From: a virus
Length of the DNA: 43,898 nt
IMG/VR virus record: IMGVR_UViG_3300031233_000001
Strand: one strand, 5' to 3'
Positions 1 through 14,460 of this stretch are shown piece by piece; position 1 is the stretch's first letter, and each line of letters opens with the position of its first letter. The notes beneath the pieces are model-generated. The model worked only from the letters and a program-made list of their open reading frames with translations. It was not told the origin of the DNA and ran no database searches. Both the position numbers and the translations under genes were made by a program.

Positions 1-75
1 CCTATAAAGCCCTCTACTCCCTATTATACAATAAATAGAAACCCCCCTTTGTACTTATCTCTGAATTCTGTTTTG
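1..75. repeat. Terminal direct overlap, identical to 43824-43898; the contig closes on itself
   Basis: Bases 1-75 (cctataaagccc...ctgttttg) recur exactly at 43824-43898. Confidence 0.95.
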
Positions 76-127
76 GTAGACTCTCCGTGTAGAGTGTTTT
101 CTTGTCAGTTCGTCAGTATCGTCAGTA
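1..127 (+). repeat. Inverted repeat copy A, right part (continues from 43772-43823 across the junction; 179 bp in total)
   Basis: The reverse complement of 1-127 equals 28692-28818 base for base. Identity ends at 128 versus 28691. GC is about 38% over 1-100 by hand count. Confidence 0.95.
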
Positions 128-133
128 TTCGGG

Positions 134-162
134 TTGACGGATTGAGTCGCCCTATGTAACTT
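134..162 (+). promoter_or_regulatory. Candidate sigma70-type promoter for the replication arm (TTGACG-N17-TAACTT)
   Basis: TTGACG at 134-139, a 17-nt spacer, TAACTT at 157-162, 31 nt upstream of the ATG at 193. Same pattern as the site at 28889-28917. Confidence 0.35.
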
Positions 163-192
163 GACCGCCTACTATCTAATCACGGGTTTGTT

Positions 193-534
193 ATGAAATA
201 TTCACCCTATGAGGCGCGCGAGTTGTTGCCCGCGATCCAAGCGGCGGAAGCGTTTGCCGCCAAGCATGGGACGACGTGCGTGCTGCCTGACGTACACGGA
301 TTTCCGGTGGTGGACCCTGCGGACCTGGACGCGCTGGAGTTGAGGCGCCCGGGCTGGATCGTCTCGCGGGAGGTGTACGCCGCTATCCATAAGGCGAAGG
401 TTCCGACCCAAACCCACGCCATTCGCCTGGGCAAGCAGTTGGCCAAGCGCTATCCGCACACGCGGATGTACGGACCACTGCGCGCCTACTGGATCATGCC
501 CGCAGGTGTAGAACCCGACTATCACACGGCGTAA
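193..534 (+). CDS. Hypothetical early protein (113 aa)
   Basis: First ORF of the + strand arm after the repeat. No recognisable motif. Confidence 0.6.
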   Translation: MKYSPYEARELLPAIQAAEAFAAKHGTTCVLPDVHGFPVVDPADLDALELRRPGWIVSREVYAAIHKAKVPTQTHAIRLGKQLAKRYPHTRMYGPLRAYWIMPAGVEPDYHTA

Positions 535-570
535 GCTGACCCTCCACACCACACTCACCTCGGGGCGCCC

Positions 571-3072
571 ATGCCTTCCATCCGCTTCACCCTCGTCACC
601 GCCGACAATTGCGCGATGACCAAGACGTTTAGCCAGGACGCCTTTGGCAACGTCACCAGCTCCGCCATCGCCCACATGACCGCAGGTAACGCTAAGGTCA
701 TCGAGATTGATGGCCCCGAACAGCTCGCCGCGTTCCTGCCGCTGCTCAAGCCCAACCAAGCCATCACCTGCGGCGTGCCGCAAGTGGGCGACACATTGCT
801 CACCACCCGGGCCGGCGCGGAATTCAACCCCACTGCGGTGGCGCGCACTAACGAGGCCTTCCGTTACCTGGATGCGCCGGCCCTGATGCCAATCGATATC
901 GACACGGCGACTGGCATGTACCGCAGCGTCGGCGAGGTGCTGGACGCTCTGGAGGCCGCCTCACCCTGGCTGCGCCACGTCTACCGTGTCGCGCGCCCGT
1001 CGTCTTCATCCTACGTCGCCGGACGCGGTTTGCGCGGCGTGCACGTCTACGTCCCGGTATCGCGCGGCACCGACATTCCTGAGCTGGGCAAGCGCCTGCA
1101 AATCGAACAATGGGCGACCGGACGCGGCTCGATTGTGATCAGCAAGTCGGGCGCGCTGCTGGTGCGCCAGCTGTCCGACGCGCTGGTCTATCAGCCATCA
1201 CGCCTGATGTTCGAGGCTGCGCCACAGCTGGAGGGCGACGTGCAGCGCGTTGTGCCGCCCGCCGAGTCGTGGCTCGAACGCGCCGCCGTGATGGGGCAAG
1301 GCCGCCCCGCCAAGTTCAAGACGGCCGAGGGTTGGCTAGACGCCCAGGAATTGCCGCCGCTACGCGACATCGAACGCCGCCGCTTCGAGGTCAACGTGCG
1401 CCAGGCCAAAGACCGCATGCGCGTCGAGGCCAAGCAGGTCGCCTTGAACTACCACAAGGCGAACGCTCTGGCCGCCGGATTGGACGATGGTGACCGTCGC
1501 GGGGCCCAGGCGCTACGTGCCCTAGGGGACAAGCGACTACCGCCGTCCTGGCCCCTGGCGTTGGCCGGTAGCCCCCTTCCGGTGCCGGCGGGGGCCATCA
1601 TTGGCAACCTGCCGACCTACCTGGGGCGGTTCTGCGCCGACCCGTTTGACGCATTGCGCCCGGACCTGACCGAAAGCCACAAGACCAAGGCCGAGATTGT
1701 CGCCATGCACGGCAAACCCGGCGTGTGGTCGCACAAGCTGCAAGAATTCTTTGAGTTCTCTATGGACGGCGAGCCCGAGCTGTCCACCCCGCTGGACATC
1801 GCCGCCGAGAACCTGTGCGGGGTAATCGAGGAATGGCCCGACAAGAAAGACAAGAAACGCAATAGCCTGTCTAACGTGATTTTCGCGGTAGGGCTACTGG
1901 CCAAACAGGCCGATATCCGCCTCACCTTCGATGTGTGCCTGGACGCCTTTTCGCGTGATGAGGTGCCATCGGATGGCGAATGGTTGCGCGCGGTGACCCG
2001 CCTGGGCTGCTCGTGCGTGTCCGCCGGCACGCTGCGCGAGGCGCTGGAGGAACTGGCACGCGCTAATCCAGTAGATCCGTGGAAAGACGCCGTGCTCAGC
2101 CTGCCGCTATGGGATGGCAAGCCGCGCGTCGATTCGCTGTTTGTCGACACCTTCGGCGCTGTGCCCTGCGAGGCGCAGTCCTACGCTGCGCGCGCGGTGC
2201 TCGCCGGCCTGGTGATGCGCCAACTACTGCCAGGCGCGCCCGCCCCCGTAGTCCCGGTGCTGATCGGCCCGCAAGGGCATGGCAAGGGCCTGTTTATCGC
2301 CGAGATGGCTAAAGCCATGGGCTTTCCGCCACCGACCGAGCTTGCCTTCACCGATGATCGGCGCATGTCCATGGCCGCCGCCCGCGCGCCGCTCGATGAG
2401 CTGTGCGAGATGGCCGGACTGGGCAAGCGTGATGCTGAGGACGTGAAGCGCTGGACGACCGACACCCAGGACGTCTATCGCCGGCCCTACGACAAGAAAG
2501 AGGAAACCCACCCGCGGCGCTTTGTGCTGATCGGCACAGCCAACAAGAATGAGCTGAACCGTGACGAGACCGGCAACCGTCGCTTTATGCCTGTACTGAC
2601 CCTGCAGTCGCCCTCGTCCGACTGGTCGGTCGAGGTGCCCCAGCTGTTCGCCGAGGCCAAAGCGAAATACTGCACCGACATGGCTAGTTATTTCCGGCTG
2701 ATTCGCGAAGCGGCTGAGGCGGTATTCGAGTACAACATGGACGCCATGAGCCGCGGCGAGGGTATGCCGGTGTCCGATCTGGACGACCTGCTGCCGCCTC
2801 ACCTGGAGCGCTTGATGTCCGATAAGCACCGCGTGCAGTCATCGGCCATCCGCGTAGCGCTGGACGTGCAAGCTACCGGGCGCAAGTTCTCCGCGCACGA
2901 GGTATCGCGCTGGCTCAAGGCGCGCGGTTGGACGGCCGGCGCCGACAGTCGTGGCATGCGCTACTACACTGCGCCGCAAACTTTCATTGATATGTGCGAA
3001 ACATTAGTGCAAACTGCGCCTAACCCTTTCGCCAACCACACCGCGGAGAATCTGCACCATGTCGCAGCCTAA
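571..3072 (+). CDS. Primase/helicase: VirE/D5-type P-loop NTPase with a possible N-terminal primase-polymerase domain
   Basis: 833 aa. Walker A GPQGHGKG, and VLIGTANK...DETGNRRFMPV typical of VirE/D5-like primase-helicases. The N-terminal IDIDT acidic motif as a primase domain is inference. Confidence 0.8.
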   Translation: MPSIRFTLVTADNCAMTKTFSQDAFGNVTSSAIAHMTAGNAKVIEIDGPEQLAAFLPLLKPNQAITCGVPQVGDTLLTTRAGAEFNPTAVARTNEAFRYLDAPALMPIDIDTATGMYRSVGEVLDALEAASPWLRHVYRVARPSSSSYVAGRGLRGVHVYVPVSRGTDIPELGKRLQIEQWATGRGSIVISKSGALLVRQLSDALVYQPSRLMFEAAPQLEGDVQRVVPPAESWLERAAVMGQGRPAKFKTAEGWLDAQELPPLRDIERRRFEVNVRQAKDRMRVEAKQVALNYHKANALAAGLDDGDRRGAQALRALGDKRLPPSWPLALAGSPLPVPAGAIIGNLPTYLGRFCADPFDALRPDLTESHKTKAEIVAMHGKPGVWSHKLQEFFEFSMDGEPELSTPLDIAAENLCGVIEEWPDKKDKKRNSLSNVIFAVGLLAKQADIRLTFDVCLDAFSRDEVPSDGEWLRAVTRLGCSCVSAGTLREALEELARANPVDPWKDAVLSLPLWDGKPRVDSLFVDTFGAVPCEAQSYAARAVLAGLVMRQLLPGAPAPVVPVLIGPQGHGKGLFIAEMAKAMGFPPPTELAFTDDRRMSMAAARAPLDELCEMAGLGKRDAEDVKRWTTDTQDVYRRPYDKKEETHPRRFVLIGTANKNELNRDETGNRRFMPVLTLQSPSSDWSVEVPQLFAEAKAKYCTDMASYFRLIREAAEAVFEYNMDAMSRGEGMPVSDLDDLLPPHLERLMSDKHRVQSSAIRVALDVQATGRKFSAHEVSRWLKARGWTAGADSRGMRYYTAPQTFIDMCETLVQTAPNPFANHTAENLHHVAA

Positions 3073-3475
3073 GACTCACATTCTCGTCGGTCGTACCATC
3101 ACGGCCGTCTACCTGGCCGAAGACGAAACAGCCATCAAGTTCACCACAGACGCTGGCGAAATCGTCGCCAAGTGCCGTGCGGAATGCTGCTCGCATACGT
3201 GGGTCGAGCATATCGACCTGCCTGCACTCGGGCTCCCTGCAGTAGTCGTCTCGGCCGAGGAGGTCGAATTGCACGCCGAGTTGGACACGCGCGGCGGCGA
3301 GCTGGAGTTCTATGGTTTCAAGATCCTCACCGATCGCGGCGAGCTGCTGATTGACTACCGCAACGAGTCGAACGGGTACTACGGTGGATCGCTTGTGTGG
3401 CCCGGCGATCATTTCTATGGCGGCGTGCGCGGTCAGAACGTGTCGGCGGGGGATTGGCAGCAGGTGGTGGCATGA
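3059..3475 (+). CDS. Hypothetical protein (138 aa)
   Basis: Its ATG overlaps the end of the upstream gene. Contains a Cys pair (CRAECCSHTW). Confidence 0.6.
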   Translation: MSQPKTHILVGRTITAVYLAEDETAIKFTTDAGEIVAKCRAECCSHTWVEHIDLPALGLPAVVVSAEEVELHAELDTRGGELEFYGFKILTDRGELLIDYRNESNGYYGGSLVWPGDHFYGGVRGQNVSAGDWQQVVA

Positions 3476-3774
3476 GCACCTACAAACCCACCGTCTACGA
3501 TGACGCCGTGCCCGCCGGCACGCCCGACATGTTCACCGTCGAGGAAGCCTCTCGCTGGTTAAGCTGCGCCCAGCCGGTCCCGCTTAAGCTGCTCCAGCGG
3601 CTTGGCAAAGACTGCACCATGGTGTCGCGGCTGCACAAACACCCGATGGGCACCAAGCCCACGCCCGACAAGCCCTGGCCGCAGGAAAAGACCTACTGTC
3701 GCGAGGTGATCGTGTTGGTGTTTCAGACCTGCCCGGATACGGCGCCGTTTGTTCCGTCAGTGGTGCAGCCGTGA
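3472..3774 (+). CDS. Hypothetical protein (100 aa)
   Basis: The ATG at 3472 forms an ATGA overlap with the upstream stop. Preferred over the track start at 3397, which would overlap by 79 nt. Confidence 0.5.
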   Translation: MSTYKPTVYDDAVPAGTPDMFTVEEASRWLSCAQPVPLKLLQRLGKDCTMVSRLHKHPMGTKPTPDKPWPQEKTYCREVIVLVFQTCPDTAPFVPSVVQP

Positions 3775-3956
3775 GCAGTAAGACCGTAACGGCCGCGTTC
3801 GAGAAACTATGGAGGCGCGCCGACACGATGTGCCGCGACGAAACCACGGCGTTACTCATGGCCGCCTACACACAGGGCCGGCGCGAGGCACGAAATGAAC
3901 TGAAGCGCCAGCGCCAGCTGGAGGCGCGGCGGAAGCGCTTGACAAAGGCCGAATAG
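3771..3956 (+). CDS. Small basic hypothetical protein (61 aa)
   Basis: GTGA start/stop overlap with the upstream gene. Arg/Lys-rich C-terminus. Confidence 0.45.
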   Translation: MSSKTVTAAFEKLWRRADTMCRDETTALLMAAYTQGRREARNELKRQRQLEARRKRLTKAE

Positions 3957-3967
3957 TCCTTTACATT
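3939..3967 (+). promoter_or_regulatory. Candidate sigma70 promoter (TTGACA-N17-TACATT)
   Basis: Perfect -35 at 3939-3944, a 17-nt spacer, TACATT at 3962-3967. It is followed by the CACACCACACCAAGGA leader and the ATG at 3998. Confidence 0.45.
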
Positions 3968-3997
3968 CGCCCTACACACCACACCAAGGATAAGCAC

Positions 3998-4666
3998 ATG
4001 TCTTACGAATTGAACGAAACGTTGGCCCGCAAAGTACTCGATACGGTCGACGCCGGGCTAGTCGACGGACTCGGTAAGCCCACACCAGGCGCCATGTGCG
4101 TCGAGGCGGCCGTGTGCTACGCCATGGGTTTGCCGCATAGCGACAGGCCGACATGTGTCGGCGACGCTGTGCGCATTTTCAAGATCCGTATCAACGACGC
4201 ACTCTGGAGTTCCGATGCAGCCCGCACCGAGGGTTTGCGTCGCTTGGCTGTCGCGCAGCTCGGTTCAGATAGCATCGATCAACAGGAGTTCGTGCGCATT
4301 GTGACCGAACAGACTATTCGACAGATCGTGCCGCGGGCGCTACGTGCCAAGATTGGCAATCCGGCGCATAGTGAGAAACTCGAAGCAGCTGCGCGACAGT
4401 GTGAAAAGGACGGCAATCGCGAAGCTGCGTTAAATGCTAAGTCAGTAGCACGCACCTACGCCTACGCCTACGCCGCCTACGCCGCCGCCTACGCCGCCGC
4501 CTACGCCGCCTACGCCGCCTACGCCGCCGCCTACGCCGCCTACGCCGGCGTAGGCGGCGCCCGTGATGAAGTGCTGGCTACCGCATGCACGATTGCACTT
4601 AACGCACTGATCGAACTGCAATCGCCCGGCTGCCAGTTCTTGTATCTGTGCGATGCGGGGGCCTGA
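3998..4666 (+). CDS. Hypothetical protein with a Tyr/Ala repeat tract (222 aa)
   Basis: Clean ORF with an AAGGA ribosome-binding site. Contains TYAYAYAAYAAAYAAAYAAYAAYAAAYAAYAGVGGA, encoded by a GCC/TAC microsatellite. Confidence 0.65.
   Translation: MSYELNETLARKVLDTVDAGLVDGLGKPTPGAMCVEAAVCYAMGLPHSDRPTCVGDAVRIFKIRINDALWSSDAARTEGLRRLAVAQLGSDSIDQQEFVRIVTEQTIRQIVPRALRAKIGNPAHSEKLEAAARQCEKDGNREAALNAKSVARTYAYAYAAYAAAYAAAYAAYAAYAAAYAAYAGVGGARDEVLATACTIALNALIELQSPGCQFLYLCDAGA
4455..4559 (+). repeat. In-frame (GCC)1-3-TAC microsatellite ending in a 26-bp perfect palindrome
   Basis: Ten TAC codons separated by 1-3 GCC codons. 4534-4546 (cgccgcctacgcc) is the exact reverse complement of 4547-4559. 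Confidence 0.9.
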
Positions 4667-4669
4667 GTC

Positions 4670-4870
4670 ATGGATACTCCCGACAATCACTTTACCCGAC
4701 GCGCGGAAGCCCGCATGTCGCAGGGCCACACCCCCGAACGCCCCGCCGTGTGGCCGGTAGTGCTGCTGGCCATCGCGTGCTGGTGTCTGGTCGTGTGCGT
4801 CCTGACACTACTGGGCTTGCCCTTCGTGCGGTGGATCGTTGACCACGGCCACCCGGTGTGGCGCCACTAG
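4670..4870 (+). CDS. Small membrane protein (66 aa)
   Basis: Hydrophobic span WPVVLLAIACWCLVVCVLTLLGLPF. Starts 4 nt after the upstream stop. Confidence 0.5.
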   Translation: MDTPDNHFTRRAEARMSQGHTPERPAVWPVVLLAIACWCLVVCVLTLLGLPFVRWIVDHGHPVWRH

Positions 4871-4929
4871 CCGCAAACTGCCGATTGCGCTAAACTAACC
4901 GCCTGAAATCCACCACATAAGGCTAAACA

Positions 4930-6759
4930 ATGGGTAAGCTTGTCCCGCGCTGGTATCAGGCCGAGGCCTGCAGCGCCATCATGGGCGCGCTCGTTGTCGC
5001 CGGTAACGCCAACCCACTCGCCGAGATTGTCACGGGCGGCGGCAAGGCCCTGCTGGCGGCGATGCTAGCCGAGGAAATTAACCTACAGTGGCCCGGCGCT
5101 CGTGTGATGGTGCTGGCGCCGTCCATGGAGCTGGTCAAGCAAAACGTCGACGAGGCCATGGGTTATCTACCCCCGGCGCTGGTGTCGCGCGTAGGCGTCT
5201 ACTGCGCCGGGCTAAAGATGAAAGACCGCCTGTCGCAAATCATCTTTGGCACGCCTCAGTCCGTCACGCGCCAGGCCAAGCGCTTTGGCCGTATCGACTT
5301 TGTGATCGTGGACGAGGCGCACGGGTTCGACGTGGGCGCTAAGACCGCGCGCAAAATCGTCGACGAACTGACCGCCAACAACCCGGGCATGCGGTTCATC
5401 GCGCTGACCGCCACCGGCTTTTGCATGAAAGGCCAGAAGGTCGTCCCGCTCACACAATGCGGGCTGTTCAACGCGAAGGTGTACGACCTGACATCGGGGC
5501 GCAACTACAACCGCCTGGTGCGCGAGGGCTTCCTGGCACCGGTGGTCGCGCCCACGATTCGCTTCCCGCAGGTCGATACCGCAGGCGTCAAGACCAAGGG
5601 CGGCGACTTCGGCGAGGCCGAGCTGGCCCGCCGCGCCATGGAGGTCACCAAGGAAGCGGTCACTGTAGCACTCGATAACGCCACCGACCGCAAGCATTTC
5701 ATGTGGTTCGCGGTGAACATCGAGCATGCCCAGATGATTCACCGCGCGCTGGTGGAGGCCGGCGAGTCGTCCGTGTTGATCCATGGCGACCTGGAGCACG
5801 GCGAACGTGTGGAAGGTATCGAGTCGTATCTAGCCAAGGCCCAGCGCCACGTGGTCAGCGTGGCCATGCTCACCACGGGATTCAACGCCAAGTTCGTTGA
5901 TTGCCTGGTATGCCTGCGCCCGACCAAGTCGCTGGTGCTGTGGCGGCAGATCGTGGGGCGCGGCTTTCGACCTTATCCGGGCAAAGAGAACGTGCTGCTA
6001 CTGGACGGTGGCGGCAACATCGCTCGGCATGGACCGATCAATGCCGCCGTGGACGAGGGCGACTCGCGCGCTGGCCTGTGGCGCTGCACCGATGAGGTCG
6101 TGCATATGCCCGTGCAGGCGGGCAAACAGAAAGCCATGCGCGAGAAATCGTCCATTCGCTTTCCGGTCAATAACCCCACCCAGCCCGAGCCGGACTTGCG
6201 CCTGGTGCTGGAGCTGATGGAGAAAGACACCGAGGCCTGCGGCTATTTAAACGACGCCGAGCACATGACTTGTCGCCAGTGCGGCCGGCCGCGCCAGGGC
6301 TTCCTGGCATTGCGCCAGCGCCGCGAGAAGACCGAGCGGTCCATCTTTGGCGAGGGCGACTCCTACGAGCTGCACGATGAGGATTCGGTCGTGCTCAAGG
6401 ATGAGGCCTGCAAACTGACGCGCCAGCTGGAGGTGCGCGATATGTCCGTCGTGCCCGAGGGTAACAGCGTGCTGAACTTCGCTTTCACGACCGACTTTGG
6501 CCCCTACGCCTTGCGCCTGGACTTCGATCGCACCCAGGCGGACCCGAAATTCTACGCCCAGGCCCGCAAGTTCTTTCAGGCGGCCACCGGTCGCAACGTG
6601 CCGGGCGAGGCTTACCGCGTCGTCTTGCAACGTGAACTGATCCCGCAGCCTGTTGACATTACCCTTACAAAGTTTGAAAATGGTCAGGTATTCCTTACGG
6701 AATGCCGATTCATCCATGAGGGTAATCTAAGGAGTTTCCGTTATGACCCGCGCTTTTAA
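4930..6759 (+). CDS. Superfamily-2 DEAH-box DNA helicase
   Basis: Walker A TGGGKA, DEAH box VIVDEAH, LTATGF, motif VI VGRGFRP, and a C-terminal Cys pair CRQCG. Confidence 0.85.
   Translation: MGKLVPRWYQAEACSAIMGALVVAGNANPLAEIVTGGGKALLAAMLAEEINLQWPGARVMVLAPSMELVKQNVDEAMGYLPPALVSRVGVYCAGLKMKDRLSQIIFGTPQSVTRQAKRFGRIDFVIVDEAHGFDVGAKTARKIVDELTANNPGMRFIALTATGFCMKGQKVVPLTQCGLFNAKVYDLTSGRNYNRLVREGFLAPVVAPTIRFPQVDTAGVKTKGGDFGEAELARRAMEVTKEAVTVALDNATDRKHFMWFAVNIEHAQMIHRALVEAGESSVLIHGDLEHGERVEGIESYLAKAQRHVVSVAMLTTGFNAKFVDCLVCLRPTKSLVLWRQIVGRGFRPYPGKENVLLLDGGGNIARHGPINAAVDEGDSRAGLWRCTDEVVHMPVQAGKQKAMREKSSIRFPVNNPTQPEPDLRLVLELMEKDTEACGYLNDAEHMTCRQCGRPRQGFLALRQRREKTERSIFGEGDSYELHDEDSVVLKDEACKLTRQLEVRDMSVVPEGNSVLNFAFTTDFGPYALRLDFDRTQADPKFYAQARKFFQAATGRNVPGEAYRVVLQRELIPQPVDITLTKFENGQVFLTECRFIHEGNLRSFRYDPRF
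6653..6681 (+). promoter_or_regulatory. Candidate internal sigma70 promoter (TTGACA-N17-GAAAAT)
   Basis: Perfect -35 at 6653-6658, a 17-nt spacer, GAAAAT at 6676-6681. It lies inside the helicase 3' end, 62 nt upstream of the ATG at 6743. Confidence 0.4.
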
Positions 6760-6934
6760 GTTCGAACTGAATGCCCGCGTGATAGAGATGCACGGCGACA
6801 GGCGCGGGTGCGTCCGCGATAGCCGCAAATACGAGCCATGGAAAGGCGACGCCGCCATTAATATCTACCTGATCCAGTGGTTTTGCGGGGGTGTGGACTG
6901 GGTGTGGGAAGACGAGCTGGCGCTCGATCAGTGA
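6743..6934 (+). CDS. Hypothetical protein (63 aa)
   Basis: AGGAG ribosome-binding site at 6729-6733, 9 nt upstream of the ATG. Confidence 0.5.
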   Translation: MTRAFKFELNARVIEMHGDRRGCVRDSRKYEPWKGDAAINIYLIQWFCGGVDWVWEDELALDQ

Positions 6935-7143
6935 AGGCTTCATTACGACACAAGATCGAACATGCGCTAGCCGATGGCCCAGGCACCGCCGCTGACATCG
7001 CTGCGGAACTTGACCGCAACTCACGGCTTACCGGCGCCTATCTACGTGACCTGTGGCGCCGCGGCGCGCTAACTCGCCGCGCCTACTACCCGCCTGAGCG
7101 CGGGCCGTCTATTCGTCGCGTGGTGTGGATGTACTCGCTATGA
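6931..7143 (+). CDS. Putative winged-helix DNA-binding protein (70 aa)
   Basis: GTGA overlap with the upstream stop. The sequence ...GPGTAADIAAELDRNSRLTGAYLRDLWRRGAL looks like a small wHTH; this is inference by eye. Confidence 0.45.
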   Translation: MKASLRHKIEHALADGPGTAADIAAELDRNSRLTGAYLRDLWRRGALTRRAYYPPERGPSIRRVVWMYSL

Positions 7144-7204
7144 ACTACTACAAAGACGTGAATAAAGCGCTACAATCACGAAAGACCGCCACCGAGCCCA
7201 CCAC

Positions 7205-9172
7205 ATGACCACACAGCTATTTCTCGACTTCGAGACCTCAAGTAACTGCGATCTGGCCGTGTCTGGTCTGGCGCGCTACTTGGCCGATCCGTCCACACGC
7301 GCCACCTGTTTCACGTGGCGCTTCCCCGACATGCCCGCGGCGGAGCTGTGGGAGGCCGGCCAGATCGTGCCGCAACGCATCGTAGCGCACCTGGCTAGCG
7401 GTGGTGAGTTCGTAGCCCACAACGCACCGTTCGACTTCCACATCTGGAACGACGTGCTGCGTCGGGATCCACGCTACGCCCATTTGCCCGAGCTGAAGAT
7501 TGAACAGGTGCGCTGTAGCGCCGCCCGTGCACGCTACAACGGCCTGCCGGGCTCGCTGGCCGGTGCGTGCGAAGCGATGGGGCTGCCGGTGCAGAAAGAC
7601 ACCGAAGCCAAGCCGATCATGCTGCTACTGGCCGCGCATCCCGAATACACGCCCCAAACGCACCCGGAGGAGTACGCGCGGCTGTACAAGTACGCGCTGA
7701 TCGACACGGATGCGATGTTCGGCTTGTGGAATGCGACCGTACCGCTGCCGCCGCTGGAGCAGCAGTTCTTTGAGCTACACATGCGCGTGTCGATGCGTGG
7801 CTTCGGCTGCGATGTCGAGGCTGCCCAGGCCATGGAGGATTTGACTGCCTTCGCCGAGGCCCAGCTCAACTATGACCTAGCCGTGGCCACGCAGGGCGGG
7901 CTGTTGTCCACCACCGAGGTGGGCAAGATCAAGGACTATGCGGCGACCATGGGCGAGGATATGGACGACGCCGGCCGCGAGACACTCAAAACCCTGATGG
8001 GGCGCCCGGACCTGCCCGCGGCGCTGCGTGAGGTGTTGGCCCTGCGCCTGGACGCCTCGCGCGCCCCTAAGAAAGCCGGCGCGATCCTGCGCGCCCATGT
8101 GGACAGCCGCATGTGTCACGCGACTGTCTACCACGGCGCGCTGTCCGGTCGCACCACCGCGCGCGGCTGCGGCGGCGTGCAGTTGCTCAACGTGGCCCGT
8201 CCGCGCCCTGGCCGCTCGGCCGAGGATTGCGAGCGCTACCTGGACGCATGCAAGCGCCACGACATCGGTTACCTGTCTAGCCCGGAAGTGGGCCCGATCC
8301 TAGCTGCCCTGGCCGATGCGCAGCGTTCGCTGTTCTGCGCTACCAAGCCGGGCCACACGCTGGTCGATGCGGACTTGTCCGGCATCGAAGCGCGCATGAG
8401 CCCGTGGCTCGCTAATGACGAGGAAATGTTGACCGTCTATGAGGCGGGTGGCGATCCTTACAAAACGTCGGCTGTGGGTATTTTCGGTGTCGAATACGCG
8501 GATGTCACGAAAGATCAGAGACAGGTAGGAAAATGCGCCTCCCTCGCATTATCTTACGGCGGCGGGGATGGCGCGTTTGTCTCGATGGCGGCGAACTACG
8601 GCGTGCACCTCGAACCGGACGCGGTGACCGACATCGTATGGAAATGGCGTGAAGCCCGCCCCGCCTTTGAGCGCTGGTGGGCCGTGCTTGAGTACGCCGT
8701 GCTGATCGCGCTGGACCAGCCGGGCAAGCGCGTGCGCGTGCCCGTGGGCCGTGGCTGGTGCTCGGAGGTGACCTTCGTGCGTGACCAGCACGCATTGCGC
8801 ATGGAGCTGCCAAGCGGGCGCGCGATCAGCTACCACAATGCCCGCCTGTACCTGGACCCGGGTGCGAGTGCGCCGATCGCCGTCTATGACAAGCCCGAGG
8901 GCTACGTCGAGACGCTCGACCGCAAGATCCTTTCCAACAACATGACGCAAGGGCTTGCCCGCGACCTGTTCTGGCTGATCATGCTGTCGGTCGATAAGGT
9001 CGAGGACATCGTGCATGAGGTCTATGACCAGATGGTGCTGGAAGTGCCGATTGAACGTGCCCACGAGCGCCTGGAGCAACTGCTGGAGCGTATGCGCATC
9101 GCGCCGAGATGGGCGCCAGGGTTGCCATTGGAAGCGGCTGGCTACGTATCGCCGCGCTGGAGAAAGGATTGA
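7205..9172 (+). CDS. Family-A DNA polymerase with 3'-5' exonuclease domain
   Basis: Exonuclease motifs LFLDFETSS, HNAPFDFHIW, YALIDTD. Polymerase motif A DADLSGIEARM, motif B RQVGKCASLALSYGGG, motif C region VHEVYDQMV. Confidence 0.9.
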   Translation: MTTQLFLDFETSSNCDLAVSGLARYLADPSTRATCFTWRFPDMPAAELWEAGQIVPQRIVAHLASGGEFVAHNAPFDFHIWNDVLRRDPRYAHLPELKIEQVRCSAARARYNGLPGSLAGACEAMGLPVQKDTEAKPIMLLLAAHPEYTPQTHPEEYARLYKYALIDTDAMFGLWNATVPLPPLEQQFFELHMRVSMRGFGCDVEAAQAMEDLTAFAEAQLNYDLAVATQGGLLSTTEVGKIKDYAATMGEDMDDAGRETLKTLMGRPDLPAALREVLALRLDASRAPKKAGAILRAHVDSRMCHATVYHGALSGRTTARGCGGVQLLNVARPRPGRSAEDCERYLDACKRHDIGYLSSPEVGPILAALADAQRSLFCATKPGHTLVDADLSGIEARMSPWLANDEEMLTVYEAGGDPYKTSAVGIFGVEYADVTKDQRQVGKCASLALSYGGGDGAFVSMAANYGVHLEPDAVTDIVWKWREARPAFERWWAVLEYAVLIALDQPGKRVRVPVGRGWCSEVTFVRDQHALRMELPSGRAISYHNARLYLDPGASAPIAVYDKPEGYVETLDRKILSNNMTQGLARDLFWLIMLSVDKVEDIVHEVYDQMVLEVPIERAHERLEQLLERMRIAPRWAPGLPLEAAGYVSPRWRKD

Positions 9173-9287
9173 TGAATAGCCTGCCGATCATGCTCCCCGA
9201 CGCTGCCTGCCAGCGCGTGCTGGCGGCTATGGCGTAAAGACCAACTATCCATTACACTCACCACACAATCACCACAGGCAGACCGAT

Positions 9288-9674
9288 ATGAGCAACACCA
9301 TGATTGACGCGCTGGAAGCCGGCGCCAAGTGGGGCACGCTGACCCTTTCCGAACAGATCGCCGCCCGGGCTATCGCACGCCGCCTGGTGGCGATGGCTAC
9401 CGATGGCGCCTCGGCCGAGGATTGGCAGCAGCTCGCCGGCTATGCCAAATGGGCGCAGCACCCCGACGCGCTCAAGGCCGCTAAGCCCACATTGACCGTC
9501 GCCGGCCATTGGGTCGATTGGCGCGGCGGTTCGTTCCTGCCCGCACTAGCGTCCACGCGAGTCGATATTCAGTACCGAAGCGGTCGCGTCACTAAGAATA
9601 TTTCAGCCGGTGCTGTTTATTGGCAGCATACCGGCCATACCGCAGATGTCATTGCCTATCGCATCGCGGATTGA
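9288..9674 (+). CDS. Hypothetical protein (128 aa)
   Basis: ORF preceded by a CA-rich leader (TCACCACACAATCACCACAGG). Confidence 0.6.
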   Translation: MSNTMIDALEAGAKWGTLTLSEQIAARAIARRLVAMATDGASAEDWQQLAGYAKWAQHPDALKAAKPTLTVAGHWVDWRGGSFLPALASTRVDIQYRSGRVTKNISAGAVYWQHTGHTADVIAYRIAD

Positions 9675-9700
9675 CCGCGCCGCAAGTTTAGCGTTACACT
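9671..9700 (+). promoter_or_regulatory. Candidate sigma70 promoter (TTGACC-N18-TACACT)
   Basis: TTGACC at 9671-9676 overlaps the upstream stop codon, followed by an 18-nt spacer and TACACT at 9695-9700, 31 nt upstream of the ATG at 9732. Confidence 0.35.
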
Positions 9701-9731
9701 CCGCTCACATATACAAACGGAACGCCCGACA

Positions 9732-10022
9732 ATGACCAAGACCGCCGCTTCGGAACGCAAGCCCGAGGACTATTACACCCTGCCGCTGGATCTGTTTTCG
9801 GTCACCGACTTGACCGACGCCCTGGGCATCGAGCGCGCGGCGGCCTTGCTTGGCACGTCCAGCCGGGCCATCTATACCGTGCGCAACACGAACGAGATGG
9901 GCTTGGAGCGCGTTGGCAAGCTCCAGGCGGCCATCCGCGAGGACGAGACGGGCCATCGTGCCCGCCTGGTCCAGATGCGTAACCTGCAGTCCATCCGTAG
10001 CGCACAGCGCGCTGCCCGCTAA
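9732..10022 (+). CDS. Putative HTH DNA-binding protein (96 aa)
   Basis: The segment LTDALGIERAAALLGTSSRAIYTVRN resembles a helix-turn-helix; this is inference. Confidence 0.5.
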   Translation: MTKTAASERKPEDYYTLPLDLFSVTDLTDALGIERAAALLGTSSRAIYTVRNTNEMGLERVGKLQAAIREDETGHRARLVQMRNLQSIRSAQRAAR

Positions 10023-10049
10023 ACCCTCACCCCACCACCGGAGAACACC

Positions 10050-10691
10050 ATGCAACTGATTTTCAACAATCTAGATGAACTGAACGACATGCTCAAGGCC
10101 ATGGGCTATGTGCGCCGTGACACCATCGCAGAGCTGACCTGCGGGGAAATTACCCTGCGTGGCAGTGAGCAATTCGTGAAAGACCTAACCGAATCTGGCC
10201 AATTCGACCGCGCTGCCGAGACTGCGTTGCGTGACGTCGACAACCTGCCCGACGATGGCGTGCCTGAGCCCGCTACCAGCGGCCACACTCCCGAGCCGGC
10301 CAAACGCAAGCGCCGCACCAAGGCCGAGATTGAGGCCGAGAAGGCCGCGCAGTCGGCGGCCGCTATTGTGGTAGCCACCGAGACGGGCGACGAGCCTAGC
10401 GTCCCGCAGACGAGCCCGCTGGACAATCTCAAAGCGGAACCCGCCGTGGCGTCAAATGGCGGCCAGGCCCGTGCGGAGATTGCCGAAATGGCTGCGCTGT
10501 TCGACGGCGCTGACCGCCTGGCGCATATCAATGAAGGCCGCGACTTCATCGCCAAGCACGGCTTCCCGACCTATAACGAGACGATGCAGCTGGCCGACGT
10601 GCCGGCCAACATCGCCGGCCACACGCCCGAGCAGGTGAGCCGTCACCGTGCGGCGATGGCCTGGAAGGCTACGCAGCTGGCGGGAGGCTAA
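10050..10691 (+). CDS. Hypothetical protein (213 aa), acidic and disordered middle region
   Basis: GGAG ribosome-binding site upstream. No recognisable catalytic motif. Confidence 0.6.
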   Translation: MQLIFNNLDELNDMLKAMGYVRRDTIAELTCGEITLRGSEQFVKDLTESGQFDRAAETALRDVDNLPDDGVPEPATSGHTPEPAKRKRRTKAEIEAEKAAQSAAAIVVATETGDEPSVPQTSPLDNLKAEPAVASNGGQARAEIAEMAALFDGADRLAHINEGRDFIAKHGFPTYNETMQLADVPANIAGHTPEQVSRHRAAMAWKATQLAGG

Positions 10692-10694
10692 GCC

Positions 10695-10871
10695 ATGACT
10701 ACCTGGGAACCGGTACGTTGGGCGCTTTTCATCCTGATCATGCTTAACGTGGCTACCGCTGCGCACCAGCACGGGCGTTCAGGTCGGGTGTCGCGCGGAG
10801 CGATCAACACGGCCGCAGGCATTCTCTTTACCGTCGCACTGCTGCTGGCCCTGACGAACTTCGAGCTTTAG
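10695..10871 (+). CDS. Small two-pass membrane protein (58 aa; below the ORF-track cutoff)
   Basis: My own translation is MTTWEPVRWALFILIMLNVATAAH...AAGILFTVALLLALTNFEL. It starts 4 nt after the upstream stop and ends just before the terminator. Confidence 0.4.
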   Translation: MTTWEPVRWALFILIMLNVATAAHQHGRSGRVSRGAINTAAGILFTVALLLALTNFEL

Positions 10872-10892
10872 TCAGATTCGCAGACACGAAAC

Positions 10893-10918
10893 GAAAGGGC
10901 CGCTCACGCGGCCCTTTC
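10893..10918. terminator. Bidirectional rho-independent terminator between the convergent early and late arms
   Basis: 11-bp stem gaaagggccgc/gcggccctttc with loop tcac. T-rich runs on both strands. Confidence 0.6.
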
Positions 10919-11509
10919 TTATTTGCGCTTGCGGTCCTGCGCCATGTAGCCATCCGCGATGCCCGTGAGCGCCATGAGTGCGGCCTGCACGTCGTAGCCG
11001 TCCTTCGCGCCCTTGGAATCCTTGCCGCCGGCCTTGCGCTGTACGCTGTAGGCGATCGCCTCGGCCTGCTTGGGGGCCTTGCCACCCTCTTTAATTTCGG
11101 TCTTGATGTTTTCCGAGCGGGCTTTATCGCTCTTGCCTTCGATGAGGGGCATATCGGCTAGCTCTGTAAGGGTGGAAGGGATGACCGGCTCGGGCAGATC
11201 GTCAAAGCCGGCCCAGCGCGATGCCGTATGCTCGTCGTTCAAATCCGGCACGAACGCATCAGGTAGCGCCGCACCGAAACACGCAAAGCCGTCCTTGGTT
11301 GTGAACAATGGTGTCAGCGGGCCGGTGTAATCGAGCCCGATTTCTGCTTTGGTCTCGCGCCGCGCGGTCTGCTCGGCCGACTCGCCCTGCTCGATCGTGC
11401 CGCCAGGAAAGCCCCAGCGCCCACCCTGTACTGCAGACGGGCGACGCTTGAGCCACAGCACACGGCCGCCATGCGTGAACATCACACCAGCGGCCGTGGG
11501 CGCTGCCAT
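10919..11509 (-). CDS. Nudix hydrolase with a Lys-rich C-terminal extension
   Basis: Nudix box GGTIEQGESAEQTARRETKAEIG. Last gene of the head/sheath/tube arm. Confidence 0.85.
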   Translation of the reverse strand: MAAPTAAGVMFTHGGRVLWLKRRPSAVQGGRWGFPGGTIEQGESAEQTARRETKAEIGLDYTGPLTPLFTTKDGFACFGAALPDAFVPDLNDEHTASRWAGFDDLPEPVIPSTLTELADMPLIEGKSDKARSENIKTEIKEGGKAPKQAEAIAYSVQRKAGGKDSKGAKDGYDVQAALMALTGIADGYMAQDRKRK

Positions 11510-11511
11510 GG

Positions 11512-11943
11512 TTACAGTGCGCTGACCGTCAGGCGAGCGAATACGAACTCCACCACACCAGGCTGCAGTATCTTCTTGCCGCTCGGCGCCTTGTATCGAC
11601 GCATGAAGCCTCCCGTCAGGTCGTAGCGCTTGGACACCGCCGGCAGCGTAATGGTCAGGTTCTGCCCCAGCTTGGTGCGGTTGGTCACCTCGTACTGGTA
11701 AATCTGCTCAAACAGCGACAGTGACGCGCTGTCCGCCTTCAAGGTGATGCCGAGGGGGATTTCGTTAAACACGAAACCCGCCGACAGCTGGCCGTCGATC
11801 CCCATCGAATACTCTCCGTTTTCAACATTTTCAAAGTCGAAAGCGTCATCCGCGCCGTAACCCTGCAGGCGCTGGGCCTGTGGGAATAGCGCCTCGGTCG
11901 TCATCGCGAGGACCGAGTTAGCAACAGTGAGTGTGCCTGCCAT
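11512..11943 (-). CDS. Probable tail tube protein (143 aa)
   Basis: Size and position immediately downstream of the sheath-like gene. AAGGAA ribosome-binding site. Inference. Confidence 0.5.
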   Translation of the reverse strand: MAGTLTVANSVLAMTTEALFPQAQRLQGYGADDAFDFENVENGEYSMGIDGQLSAGFVFNEIPLGITLKADSASLSLFEQIYQYEVTNRTKLGQNLTITLPAVSKRYDLTGGFMRRYKAPSGKKILQPGVVEFVFARLTVSAL

Positions 11944-11952
11944 GTCGGTTCC

Positions 11953-13440: not shown

Positions 13441-13486
13441 GGGTCGGGCTCCAGGAAAAGGGTTGCGAGAGGGATTCTATAGCAAA

Positions 13487-14451: not shown

Positions 14452-14460
14452 TAGCGCACC

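What the first reader, a model, noticed from the sequence alone, without database searches (positions are those of the whole stretch)
1..127. The repeat has origin/operator-like architecture: an AT-rich core flanked by GTCAGT hexamer arrays
Seen directly: one end carries three direct GTCAGT hexamers at 104, 112 and 121 (TTGTCAGTTCGTCAGTATCGTCAGTA, spacing 8 and 9 bp). The other end carries ACTGAC-N9-GTCAGT (43801-43821) and the inverted pair CGTCAG/CTGACG (43772 and 43802). A 12-mer, TTCTTGTCAGTT, occurs at both 43811-43822 and 99-110, bracketing the AT-rich core (ctattatacaataaatagaaa). That core contains a perfect TATAAT, on the minus strand at 28-23 and on the plus strand at 28791-28796. 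Because the copies are inverted, the triple-GTCAGT end faces the replication arm at copy A and terS at copy B. The palindromic end faces the baseplate unit and the exonuclease arm. Inference: short iterated sites next to an AT-rich unwinding element is the classical layout of an iteron origin. It would equally suit a shared operator hub controlling all four arms. Candidate binders are the small wHTH (6931-7143), the HTH protein (9732-10022) and the primase-helicase.
Basis: partly seen in the sequence, partly recalled or inferred. Interest (0 to 1): 0.7.

Follow-up and report, generated by a model that had tools for sequence, protein, structure and literature searches.

The report
Twin iteron-flanked probable phage replication origins
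A 179-bp AT-rich element, flanked by short repeated hexamers and present in two identical inverted copies between the phage's four gene blocks, is real, is conserved across the Bcep781/OP2 family of soil and plant-pathogen phages, and most likely is a duplicated replication origin recognised by the phage's own primase-helicase.

Summary
The window is a circular 43,823-bp phage genome carrying a perfect 179-bp inverted repeat, called R here (43772..127 across the junction, and 28692-28870). Each copy holds five exact GTCAGT/ACTGAC hexamers, against 0.2 expected. All hexamer clusters in the genome lie in R.

R is not a quirk of this genome. All nine fetched complete relatives (Bcep781, OP2, XPP1, KPhi1, XapPhi1, NEB7, PhiXhv-18, PQ43W, Adzire), plus three metagenomic relatives for which both copies were recovered, carry one pair of near-identical AT-rich repeats in the same two divergent intergenic hubs. 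In most of them a lineage-specific short motif lies in opposite orientations on either side of the core. In close relatives the core has diverged while the hexamers stay in place.

The R core is the least stable duplex in the genome. The adjacent primase-helicase is a homologue of SaPI1 Rep1 by sequence and by predicted structure, including a C-terminal winged helix. Rep1 is a self-loading initiator that binds hexamer iterons flanking an AT-rich centre. All four gene arms have their own promoters outside R.

Best reading: a twin SaPI/P4-type origin, possibly also regulatory (confidence about 0.5). A pure operator hub remains possible. No binding or replication data exist.

The parts
43772..43898 (.). 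R copy A, left part (palindromic end plus start of the AT-rich core). 43824-43898 duplicates 1-75 because the contig is circular.
1..127 (.). R copy A, right part (AT-rich core 1-103 plus the triple GTCAGT array). With 43772-43823 this makes the 179-bp element.
28692..28870 (.). R copy B, the exact reverse complement of copy A. Its AT-rich core is 28716-28820.
104..126 (+). Iteron array, copy A: GTCAGT at 104-109, 112-117 and 121-126. It faces the primase arm.
   Evidence: position conserved in L009, L010, L015, L025
43794..43821 (.). Iterons at the other flank of copy A: ACTGAG 43794-43799 (degenerate), ACTGAC 43801-43806, then nine bases, then GTCAGT 43816-43821. The outlying CGTCAG is at 43772-43777.
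   Evidence: the TATAGGAAACTGAC-N9-GTCAGT block is the best conserved part of R
28693..28715 (-). Iteron array, copy B: ACTGAC at 28693, 28702 and 28710. It faces terS.
28821..28870 (.). Iterons, copy B: ACTGAC 28821-28826, GTCAGT 28836-28841, CTCAGT 28843-28848, CTGACG 28865-28870. They face the exonuclease arm.
571..3072 (+). Primase / SF3 helicase (833 aa) with a VapE-like domain. The helicase part is a homologue of SaPI1 Rep1. It is the proposed initiator.
2734..3069 (+). C-terminal domain of the primase-helicase (aa 722-833). It is predicted to be a winged helix (recognition helix about aa 775-784, wing 788-800) and is the proposed iteron reader.
134..162 (+). Sigma-70-like promoter of the primase arm, outside R: TTGACG, 17 bases, TAACTT.
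   Evidence: read; same type in relatives. Below the strict scan threshold.
28889..28917 (+). Sigma-70-like promoter of the exonuclease arm, outside R: TGGACG, 17 bases, TAAGTT. Relatives have TTGACG-N17-TAACGT.
28638..28666 (-). Promoter-like site of the terS/head arm, outside R: TGCAAC, 17 bases, TAAACT, then 6 bases to the ATG at 28631. This looks like a leaderless start.
43733..43761 (-). Promoter-like site of the baseplate/tail arm, outside R: TGGAAT, 17 bases, TACCAT, then 6 bases to the ATG at 43726. This looks like a leaderless start.
28155..28631 (-). TerS-like protein (158 aa) with a CxxC...CxxC zinc ribbon. First gene of the head arm, next to copy B.
43340..43726 (-). First gene of the baseplate arm. 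The homology-supported start is ATG 43726, not GTG 43783.
28950..30164 (+). Exonuclease, first gene of the recombination/lysis arm, next to copy B.

Best explanation
R is a replication origin present in two copies. It is of the type used by self-loading SF3 primase-helicase initiators, such as SaPI Rep/PriRep and P4 alpha.

Proposed mechanism. The C-terminal winged-helix domain of the phage's own primase-helicase (571-3072) reads the GTC(A/T)GT hexamers. These lie in opposite orientation on the two sides of a roughly 105-bp AT-rich core. Initiator molecules assemble on each flank, melt the core, and load as helicase hexamers that prime bidirectional synthesis.

Each copy sits between two outward-facing promoters, with the triple array ending 6 nt upstream of the -35 of the primase-arm promoter. 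Initiator binding therefore probably also modulates transcription, as an autoregulatory or early/late coupling. The two copies are kept alike by gene conversion, because both must match one initiator specificity.

Shown here:
- the repeat, the hexamer enrichment and their layout;
- family-wide conservation of the layout;
- the minimum in duplex stability;
- homology of the helicase and C-terminal domain to SaPI1 Rep1;
- promoters lying outside R.

Inferred:
- binding of the winged helix to the hexamers;
- melting, helicase loading and origin activity;
- any regulatory effect.
For: (1) Layout. There are 5 exact plus 2 degenerate hexamers per copy, with at least 2 on each side of the core pointing in opposite directions and spaced 8-9 bp. 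PMC9371898 describes SaPI origins in the same terms: 6-12 penta- or hexanucleotide iterons, an AT-rich centre, at least two iterons on each side in opposite directions, read by the winged helix of the Rep C-terminal domain, and two iterons in 19 bp.

(2) Initiator. Primase-helicase aa 491-721 matches PDB 7PDS, the SaPI1 Rep1-DNA complex, with E=2.5e-23. An AlphaFold model of aa 470-833 (pLDDT 85) has 7PDS chains as its best PDB matches (E=1e-16, about 366 aligned columns for a 364-residue query). The model predicts a helix-helix-hairpin winged helix at aa 754-800.

(3) Stability. The R core is the least stable duplex in the whole genome at 40, 80 and 120-bp windows, z = 4.2-4.8.

(4) Selection on the sites. 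In 7 close relatives the core is poorly alignable, but the TACTGACGA..CTGACGA, TATAGGAAACTGAC and CGTCAGTTCGTCAGT blocks are kept.

(5) Family-wide pattern. All 9 fetched complete genomes, and the metagenomic relatives with both copies known, carry one repeat pair in the two divergent hubs. Identity is 91-100%, or 72% in Adzire. The repeats are unrelated between genera. In 10 of 13 elements the top k-mer lies in opposite orientation on the two sides of the least stable window. A replicon-specific initiator/origin pair would behave this way.

(6) Promoters. The four arms have their own promoters outside R, so R is an extra element, not merely promoter DNA.

(7) Host factors. Motifs differ between phages that infect the same host genus (KPhi1, OP2, XapPhi1), which argues for a phage-encoded reader.
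Against: - There are no binding, replication-start or coverage data.
- GC skew is uninformative.
- SaPI and P4 origins are single-copy and lie downstream of or within rep. Here there are two copies, and only one is next to the primase gene.
- Covariation between the winged-helix recognition helix and the motif is only partial. PQ43W has nearly the same helix as the window but a different motif.
- Adzire keeps a similar two-copy element although the helicase part of its large replication protein is not detectably VapE-like.
- Both copies sit exactly at the two divergent transcription hubs. In the direct-repeat genomes the repeated unit also includes promoters. A regulatory element would show the same placement.
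Confidence: 0.5

Rival explanations
1. R is purely a transcriptional control module: an operator or enhancer hub. A phage-encoded regulator binds the hexamer arrays upstream of the four outward promoters. It looping-represses or activates them to time early (primase, exonuclease) against late (head, tail) expression. The AT-rich core serves as a UP-like, bendable or nucleoid-protein-binding spacer, or carries internal promoters.
For: - Both copies lie exactly at the only two major divergent junctions.
- The arrays lie 36-100 nt upstream of the four inferred transcription starts (read).
- In the direct-repeat genomes the repeated unit includes either the early promoters (XapPhi1, PhiXhv-18) or the late-side leaders (Bcep781).
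- The spacing from array to terS -10 is 48/49 or 58/59 nt in six relatives, which keeps helical phase (sequences).
- The core contains -10-like boxes: TATAAT, and the conserved TATAGG.
Against: - No sigma-70 promoter inside R passes the scan.
- TATAAT is not conserved.
- The same triple array sits at different distances from the primase and terS promoters: about -43..-65 against -61..-85.
- The family-wide HTH protein (9732-10022) does not co-vary with the motif.
- ORF 193-534 is missing at that position in L009, which has the same motif.
- A plain operator would not need the genome's least stable 100-bp segment, nor opposite-facing arrays on both sides of it.
Confidence: 0.25
2. R is mainly a recombination 'hinge'. 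It is a pair of homologous sequences kept by, or exploited for, recombination, allowing gene arms to be inverted or exchanged (flip-flop isomers, module shuffling), with no origin or operator role. A variant of this idea is a selfish miniature inverted-repeat element that landed twice.
For: - The family shows three arm arrangements around the two hubs.
- Inside the window's own clade, L022 and L025 have terS|R|baseplate. That is exactly the product of a crossover between the inverted copies.
- The phage encodes an exonuclease and RusA, and relatives annotate an annealing protein.
- R has inverted hexamers at its ends, like terminal inverted repeats.
Against: - Position, copy number and layout are conserved in more than 45 genomes across four host groups, unlike a mobile element.
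- No target-site duplication is visible at the repeat ends (read).
- No R-like sequence was found in bacterial genomes. The single genome hit, like one of the two metagenome hits, is a chance match in an unrelated contig.
- All 16 OP2-like genomes with inverted repeats have the same arrangement, and contigs of close relatives run straight through R, so inversion is rare and not an ongoing 50:50 flip-flop.
- Recombination explains why the copies stay alike, but not the selection on the hexamers.
Confidence: 0.08
3. R is a pac site of the phage P1 type (hexamer clusters flanking a cleavage region), recognised by the adjacent small terminase.
For: - One copy is next to the TerS-like gene in all 10 complete genomes examined (the window).
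- Hexamer clusters on both sides of a central region resemble P1 pac (my own knowledge of P1).
- The TerS-like protein has a zinc ribbon that could bind DNA.
Against: - Two pac sites, inverted in some genera and direct in others, would be odd.
- The TerS-like protein is 57-84% identical across lineages whose motifs differ completely, so it does not look like the specificity reader.
Confidence: 0.04
4. The repeat, or its perfect identity, is an assembly artefact.
For: - The 127/127/75-nt figures are the signature of a k=127 graph path.
- Many public contigs of this same phage break inside R at k=141.
- Perfect identity could come from collapsing two slightly different copies.
Against: - An independent 43,952-bp assembly (L026) has the identical R in the same context.
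- Every relative has the equivalent pair, including the 2005-2006 records OP2 and Bcep781.
- Relatives show 91-99% identity between copies, so a real near-identical pair is expected.
Confidence: 0.02

Closest known systems
SaPI replication origins with Rep / PriRep self-loading SF3 helicase-initiators (Staphylococcus aureus pathogenicity islands)
   Same: Both have hexanucleotide iterons (6-12), an AT-rich centre, and at least two iterons on each side pointing in opposite directions. Iterons are closely spaced (two in 19 bp). The initiator is an SF3 helicase with a C-terminal winged helix, and in SaPI5 it is fused to a primase (PMC9371898). The window's primase-helicase is a sequence and structure homologue of SaPI1 Rep1, PDB 7PDS.
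   Different: The SaPI ori is single-copy and lies immediately downstream of rep. Here there are two copies, and the one next to the primase gene lies upstream of it. Both copies lie between divergent promoters of a virulent 44-kb myophage. Binding and origin activity are untested here.
Satellite phage P4 ori and crr, bound by the alpha primase-helicase (my own knowledge: Ziegelin, Lanka and colleagues, 1990s)
   Same: One polypeptide combines a primase, an SF3 helicase and a C-terminal DNA-binding domain that reads short iterons. Two separate cis elements in the genome both carry the iterons.
   Different: P4 iterons are octamers (TGTTCACC). Ori and crr are not copies of one another and are not at divergent promoter hubs. 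No detectable sequence match to P4 alpha appeared in the PDB search.
Herpes simplex virus oriS, and the SV40 origin/control region (my own knowledge)
   Same: An AT-rich centre is flanked by inverted binding sites for a helicase-type initiator and sits between divergent promoters. HSV oriS is diploid because it lies in inverted repeats, and those repeats are associated with segment inversion. In SV40 the initiator also autoregulates the adjacent early promoter.
   Different: These are eukaryotic viruses with unrelated sequences and a different initiator in HSV (UL9, SF2). The comparison is by analogy only.
Baculovirus homologous regions (hrs) (my own knowledge)
   Same: Repeated AT-rich imperfect palindromes are dispersed in a viral genome. 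They act both as enhancers and as candidate origins, and they are hotspots of recombination.
   Different: They have many copies and many palindromes per hr, they bind IE-1, and they are eukaryotic.
Classical iteron origins of plasmids (pPS10, RK2, F, P1 oriR)
   Same: Repeated initiator sites lie next to an AT-rich unwinding element, and the initiator gene is nearby.
   Different: Plasmid iterons are about 17-22 bp, direct, in helical phase and on one side of the unwinding element, and they come with DnaA boxes. Here the sites are hexamers at 8-9 bp on both sides, and no DnaA box is present.

Membership tests
SaPI/P4-type origin of a self-loading SF3 helicase-initiator | Six to twelve penta- or hexanucleotide iterons | tested here: met
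   There are 5 exact GTCAGT/ACTGAC sites, 1 CGTCAG and 1 ACTGAG per 179-bp copy. This compares with 0.2 expected, and 0 of 5000 shuffles reached 5.
SaPI/P4-type origin of a self-loading SF3 helicase-initiator | AT-rich centre with iterons on both sides, at least two per side pointing in opposite directions | tested here: met
   In copy B the order is three ACTGAC, a 105-bp core of about 35% GC, then ACTGAC-N9-GTCAGT-n-CTCAGT. The core is the least stable duplex in the genome. The same opposite-orientation layout appears in 10 of 13 related elements. On one side of the window's copy the second site is degenerate.
SaPI/P4-type origin of a self-loading SF3 helicase-initiator | Cognate SF3 helicase-initiator with a C-terminal winged-helix domain, encoded by the same replicon | tested here: met
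   Pfam finds a VapE-like domain. phmmer against 7PDS (SaPI1 Rep1) gives E=2.5e-23. Foldseek against 7PDS gives E=1e-16 over about the full 364-residue model, which includes a predicted winged helix.
SaPI/P4-type origin of a self-loading SF3 helicase-initiator | The initiator binds the iterons specifically | not testable with these tools
   Only indirect evidence is available. The recognition-helix region differs between lineages with different motifs, but the correlation is partial, and PQ43W is an exception.
SaPI/P4-type origin of a self-loading SF3 helicase-initiator | The element supports initiator-dependent replication, and replication starts there | not testable with these tools
   GC skew gives no signal. 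No coverage or replication data were available.
SaPI/P4-type origin of a self-loading SF3 helicase-initiator | [quoted passage not shown] | tested here: not met
   There are two copies. Copy A ends 444 bp upstream of the primase-helicase gene, and copy B is about 15 or 28.6 kb away. This concerns placement, not mechanism.
Classical plasmid-type iteron origin | Direct iterons of about 17-22 bp in helical phase on one side of an unwinding element, with DnaA boxes | tested here: not met
   The sites are hexamers at 8-9 bp spacing on both sides. No TTATCCACA with up to one mismatch occurs in R.
Bidirectional sigma-70 promoter region | Paired -35 and -10 hexamers with 16-18 nt spacing inside the element, in both directions | tested here: not met
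   The scan found none in or around either copy. TATAAT has no -35 and is not conserved. The promoters of all four arms lie outside R in this clade.
P1-type pac site | Preferred packaging cleavage within the element, with limited permutation from it | not testable with these tools
   The literature describes the Bcep781 group as highly, perhaps completely, circularly permuted (PMC2771037). The TerS-like protein is conserved across lineages with different motifs.
Site-specific invertible segment (Hin/Gin/Fim type) | A dedicated invertase or recombinase gene and short crossover sites | not tested
   No recombinase is annotated in the gene tables of the relatives, but the window's genes were not all searched. 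The inversion seen in L022 and L025 fits homologous recombination between the 179-bp copies.

The most novel reading that the evidence does not exclude
The Bcep781/OP2-like myophages may run on two identical hub elements, each with three roles. Each would be an origin for the phage's SF3 primase-helicase, a shared control region for the divergent gene arms on either side, and the hinge at which those arms are inverted or swapped. The two copies would evolve in concert with the initiator's specificity. That would make R a bacteriophage counterpart of HSV oriS or baculovirus hrs. The arm shuffling seen between genera, and the flipped isomer within the window's own clade, would then be a direct consequence of the duplicated origin.
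Probability: 0.2. Interest if true: 0.75.

Novelty: new variant of a known kind. Interest (0 to 1): 0.55.

Why it matters
Replication origins are unknown for most virulent phages, and none has been described for this family in the papers that could be searched. If R is the origin, several things follow.
- It gives a testable initiator/origin pair: the winged helix of a VapE-type primase-helicase and GTC(A/T)GT hexamers. The family includes biocontrol phages of Xanthomonas, Ralstonia and Burkholderia.
- It extends the SaPI/P4 self-loading initiator logic to full-size lytic myophages.
- It offers a natural case of a duplicated origin kept identical by concerted evolution while its sequence turns over completely between genera.
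- It would explain a practical nuisance: short-read assemblies of these phages break or become ambiguous at R.
- It would explain why gene-arm order differs between genera.

If R is instead only an operator, it is still the family's central cis-regulatory element and the binding target of an unidentified regulator.

Tried and rejected
- **Literature.** No searchable paper mentions these repeats. The original Bcep781 genome paper (Summer et al. 2006, J Bacteriol 188:255) and the SaPI ori papers could not be opened. An earlier description of the Bcep781 intergenic repeats therefore cannot be excluded.
- **Nucleotide similarity.** A blastn search of the copy-B intergenic region against 50,697 phage records found nothing.
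- **Exact searches of collections.** Searching the triple array in viral contigs and the core in metagenomes found nothing. The degenerate pattern gave two chance hits in AT-rich bacterial contigs, L021 and L030.
- **GC skew.** No origin signal.
- **Sigma-70 and terminator scans of both hubs.** No promoter passed, and the one terminator-like hit lies outside R.
- **RNA genes.** Rfam and tRNA scans found none. The idea of an RNA or DNA hairpin from ACTGAC-N9-GTCAGT was dropped, because the two half-sites are not kept complementary in L016 and L012.
- **DnaA boxes.** None in R.
- **Alternative binders.**
  - HTH protein 9732-10022: the HTH region is conserved between lineages with different motifs.
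  - ORF 193-534: absent at that position in L009, with no family hit.
  - ORF 6877-7143: no family hit.
  - TerS-like protein: too conserved to be the specificity reader.
- **Ongoing 50:50 flip-flop.** Not supported. Contigs of close relatives run through R in a single arrangement, and all 16 OP2-like genomes share one arrangement. The many contigs that break at R do so at exactly k=141 inside the repeat, which is an assembler effect.
- **Polarity rule.** An attempt to find a universal rule for which arm the conserved TATAG box points to failed across genera (sequences).
Full report
**1. What is in the sequence**

The window is a circular assembly. Bases 1-75 repeat at 43824-43898, so the unit genome is 43,823 bp with 62.5% GC.

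The finding's interval 1-127 is the right-hand part of a 179-bp element, which I call R. R spans the junction (43772..43823 plus 1..127). It recurs as an exact reverse complement at 28692-28870. The lengths 127, 127 and 75 are what a k=127 assembly path through a 179-bp repeat yields.

The repeat is nevertheless real. An independent 43,952-bp assembly from another sample carries the identical element in the same context. Every relative has an equivalent pair (see section 3).

There are also two degenerate sites: ACTGAG at 43794-43799, matching CTCAGT at 28843-28848.

R has 42% GC, and its roughly 105-bp core has about 35%.

**2. Is it more than chance?**

Yes.
- GTCAGT/ACTGAC occurs 5 times per 179-bp copy. 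The mean in 5000 dinucleotide-preserving shuffles was 0.20, and none reached 5.
- Allowing any hexamer class, a count of 5 was reached in 7 of 5000 shuffles.
- Genome-wide there are 32 occurrences against 16.3 +/- 4.1 expected. The excess equals the 10 sites inside the two copies.
- Clusters of three or more sites within 60 bp occur nowhere else.

**3. Setting and relatives**

R lies in the two intergenic regions from which the four major gene arms diverge.
- Copy A separates the baseplate/tail arm (minus strand, first gene 43340-43726) from the primase/replication arm (plus strand, from 193).
- Copy B separates the terS/head arm (minus strand, from 28631) from the exonuclease/lysis arm (plus strand, from 28950).

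The phage belongs to the Bcep781/OP2 group: Naesvirus, Kantovirinae and allies. Its primase is 50-59% identical to those of Burkholderia, Xanthomonas and Ralstonia phages.

I fetched nine complete relatives, and every one has the same feature. Each carries one pair of AT-rich repeats of about 100-510 bp, placed exactly in the two divergent hubs.

| Orientation of the two copies | Genomes |
|---|---|
| Direct | Bcep781, PQ43W, XapPhi1, NEB7, PhiXhv-18, Adzire |
| Inverted | OP2, XPP1, KPhi1, the window |

Within a genome the two copies are 91-100% identical (72% in Adzire). Between genera they share no detectable similarity. This is concerted evolution of two copies.

Most lineages have their own short motif, arranged in opposite orientations on the two sides of the AT-rich core:

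| Lineage | Motif |
|---|---|
| Window | GTCAGT |
| Bcep781 | TGACAGAT |
| OP2 | GCGAGCTCTACCGTAA |
| XapPhi1 | GAACCAAACGTAC |
| KPhi1 | GTCTGTAT |
| PQ43W | GGTACGGAGGAC |
| Adzire | CTWTCACAC |

An unbiased k-mer count reproduces this opposite-orientation layout around the least stable 60-bp window in 10 of 13 elements.

**4. Close relatives show selection on the hexamers**

IMG/VR and metagenome contigs 63-88% identical in the primase or exonuclease protein (L009/L013, L010/L017, L011/L016, L012, L014, L015, L022, L025) keep the same plan.
- On the terS/primase side there are two or three ACTGAC sites.
- On the other side the order is TATAGGAAACTGAC, nine bases, GTCAGT, two bases, GTCAGT, and a CTGACG about 20 nt further out.
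- In L011, L012 and L016 some sites read GTCTGT, the KPhi1 version.

In a seven-genome alignment the hexamer blocks and the TATAGG box are conserved, while the core between them is hardly alignable.

Copies within one phage are always inverted. Their identities are 100% over 179 nt, 94% over 202, 91.6% over 214 and 99.4% over 171.

**5. Promoters lie outside R**

In this clade all four arms have their own promoter-like sites between R and the first gene.
- Early-type (primase and exonuclease arms): TTGACG-N17-TAACTT at 134-162 and TGGACG-N17-TAAGTT at 28889-28917. Relatives have TTGACG-N17-TAACGT.
- Late-type (head and tail arms): TGCAAC-N17-TAAACT-N6-ATG at 28666-28629 on the minus strand, and TGGAAT-N17-TACCAT-N6-ATG at 43761-43724 on the minus strand. 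With only six bases between the -10 and the ATG, these look like leaderless starts.

These sites were read. They fall below the strict consensus scan, which found nothing in R either. R is therefore an additional element between two outward promoters, not simply promoter DNA.

**6. What R most likely is**

Three independent lines point to an origin of the kind used by self-loading SF3 helicase-initiators.

(a) The R core is the thermodynamically least stable segment of the whole genome at 40, 80 and 120-bp windows (z = 4.2-4.8).

(b) The layout matches the published description of SaPI origins point for point (PMC9371898). That description is: six to twelve penta- or hexanucleotide iterons, an AT-rich centre, and at least two iterons on each side pointing in opposite directions. 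The iterons are read by the winged helix in the C-terminal domain of Rep, and two iterons fit in 19 bp.

(c) The gene next to copy A encodes an 833-aa primase fused to a VapE-type SF3 helicase.
- Residues 491-721 match PDB 7PDS, the SaPI1 Rep1-DNA complex, at E=2.5e-23.
- An AlphaFold model of residues 470-833 (pLDDT 85) finds the 7PDS chains as its best solved-structure matches (E=1e-16, about 366 aligned columns).
- The model ends in a strand-helix-helix-hairpin winged helix at residues 754-800.
- The next matches are the NrS-1, ASFV and mpox primase-helicases and MCM. The viral library returns VapE-type phage primase-helicases.

The proposed mechanism is as follows. The winged helix reads the hexamers. 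Initiators assemble on both flanks, melt the core and load two helicase rings. This step is inferred by homology and was not tested.

The triple array ends 6 nt from the -35 of the primase-arm promoter, so autoregulation by the initiator is plausible, as with SV40 large T antigen or plasmid Rep proteins. This too is inference.

**7. Evidence that cuts the other way**

- There is no experimental or coverage evidence, and GC skew is flat.
- SaPI and P4 origins are single-copy and sit beside or within rep.
- The recognition-helix region of the winged helix differs between lineages with different motifs and is alike in W, L009 and L010, which share GTCAGT. However, PQ43W has almost the same helix as the window and a different motif.
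- Adzire keeps a two-copy element although its 917-aa replication protein shares only the N-terminal primase-like region with the window's protein.
- Placement at the two transcription hubs, and the inclusion of promoters within the repeated unit in the direct-repeat genomes, are what a regulatory module would also show.
- In six relatives the distance from the array to the terS -10 is 48/49 or 58/59 nt, which keeps helical phase (sequences). This hints at a transcriptional link.

I therefore put the origin reading (with or without a regulatory side) at about 0.5, and a purely regulatory hub at about 0.25.

**8. Other rivals**

*pac site.* One copy always adjoins the TerS-like gene, and P1 pac has hexamers on both sides of its cleavage region. 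Against this:
- two pac sites in variable orientation are unlikely;
- the Bcep781 group is described as highly, perhaps completely, circularly permuted (PMC2771037);
- the TerS-like protein is 57-84% identical across lineages with entirely different motifs.

*Mobile element.* This is unlikely, given the fixed position in more than 45 genomes, the lack of target duplications, and the absence from bacterial genomes.

*RNA gene or hairpin.* There are no Rfam or tRNA hits, and the palindrome halves are not kept complementary in L012 and L016.

**9. Recombination at R**

The inverted copies are substrates for inversion of the 15-kb exonuclease-to-baseplate segment.

All Xanthomonas and Burkholderia genomes, including 16 OP2-like genomes with inverted repeats, have the window's arrangement. 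PQ43W has that segment flipped. Adzire has yet another arm order.

Two contigs from different samples within the window's own clade (L022, L025) read terS|R|baseplate. R keeps its orientation relative to terS. This is exactly the crossover product.

Inversion at R has therefore happened on a short evolutionary scale. However, contigs that run through R in one arrangement argue against a constant 50:50 flip-flop. The many public contigs that stop inside R do so at k=141, which is an assembler effect.

**10. Novelty and verdict**

The architecture is origin-like in a specific, known sense (SaPI/P4 type, not plasmid-iteron type; there is no DnaA box), and the primase-helicase is the best candidate reader. 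The TATAAT and the HTH-protein suggestions do not hold up.

I found no description of these twin elements in the searchable literature. The 2006 Bcep781 paper could not be read.

I class R as a new variant of a known kind. It would be an SF3-initiator iteron origin that is duplicated, embedded in the two divergent transcription hubs of a lytic myophage family, evolving in concert, and acting as a recombination hinge. Without binding or replication data this remains a well-supported hypothesis.

Noticed in passing
window 28629-28666 (-) and 43724-43761 (-); same in L009-L017, Bcep781, XapPhi1, OP2, KPhi1: The first genes of the head and tail arms have a -10-like TAnnnT hexamer only 6-7 nt before the ATG and no Shine-Dalgarno sequence. 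This suggests leaderless late mRNAs across the family. The early arms instead have TTGACG-N17-TAAnnT promoters with leaders.
   Followed up: partly
L022 2640-2880 and L025 7720-7960, compared with window 28692-28870 and 43724-43772: Two contigs from different samples, 75-88% identical in protein to the window, join the terS arm to the baseplate arm through R. This is the flipped isomer expected from recombination between the inverted copies. L014/L023 has the same right half of R next to the exonuclease, and its contig starts inside R.
   Followed up: partly
L002 (PQ43W), L020 (Adzire), compared with the window and L001, L003-L008: The four gene arms are arranged in three different ways around the two hubs. 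Most phages have terS|exo plus baseplate|primase. PQ43W has terS|baseplate plus exo|primase. Adzire has the same hubs as PQ43W but with different arms converging. The arms behave as modules exchanged at R and at the convergent terminator regions.
   Followed up: partly
window 1-127, 43772-43898; L027-L029: There are assembly signatures at R. The window's 127/127/75-nt repeat figures fit a k=127 graph path. In at least 37 public samples the same phage is assembled as contigs of about 28.6 kb that stop exactly 141 nt into R. The orientation of the 14.9-kb segment relative to the rest depends on read pairs spanning R.
   Followed up: yes
window 43340-43783 (-): The mechanical ORF start, GTG 43783, lies inside R. 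Homologues in L010, L022 and L025 and the conserved upstream sequence place the real start at ATG 43726, so the gene does not overlap R.
   Followed up: yes
window 28155-28631 (-): The TerS-like protein has a CxxC...CxxC zinc ribbon with a variable insertion of 0-25 residues between the cysteine pairs, and a very conserved N-terminal helix. It gave only sub-threshold Pfam matches and a PHROG family of unknown function. Its C-terminal half resembles small-terminase cores.
   Followed up: partly
window 4453-4569, within ORF 3998-4666: There are irregular 9/12-nt tandem repeats (CGCCTACGCCGC...) inside a replication-arm ORF. Similar coding repeats occur in XapPhi1 (44730-44940), KPhi1 (43660-43959) and PQ43W (1190-1530, 40361-40960).
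   Followed up: no
L007 (PhiXhv-18) 29694-30053: The primase-side hub carries a tandem duplication of a 131-bp core unit of its repeat, so one hub has two cores and the other has one.
   Followed up: no
L005 (KPhi1) 2269-2344, 6044-6119, 6419-6494, 43086-43161: There are four copies of a 76-nt sequence containing TTGACA-N17-TAGGAA-type promoter-like boxes within the replication arm. This suggests a reused early or middle promoter cassette.
   Followed up: no
window 16421-16449: An internal sigma-70-like promoter, TTGACA-N17-TAAGCT, lies upstream of the small plus-strand unit that starts at 16452, inside the structural region.
   Followed up: no
L009 9690-10000, compared with window 193-534: The 113-aa ORF that opens the primase arm in the window is missing at that position in the closest complete relative (88% identical primase). 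It is also present in L010, L011, XapPhi1, NEB7 and PhiXhv-18, and unannotated in KPhi1. It is therefore dispensable or mobile.
   Followed up: partly
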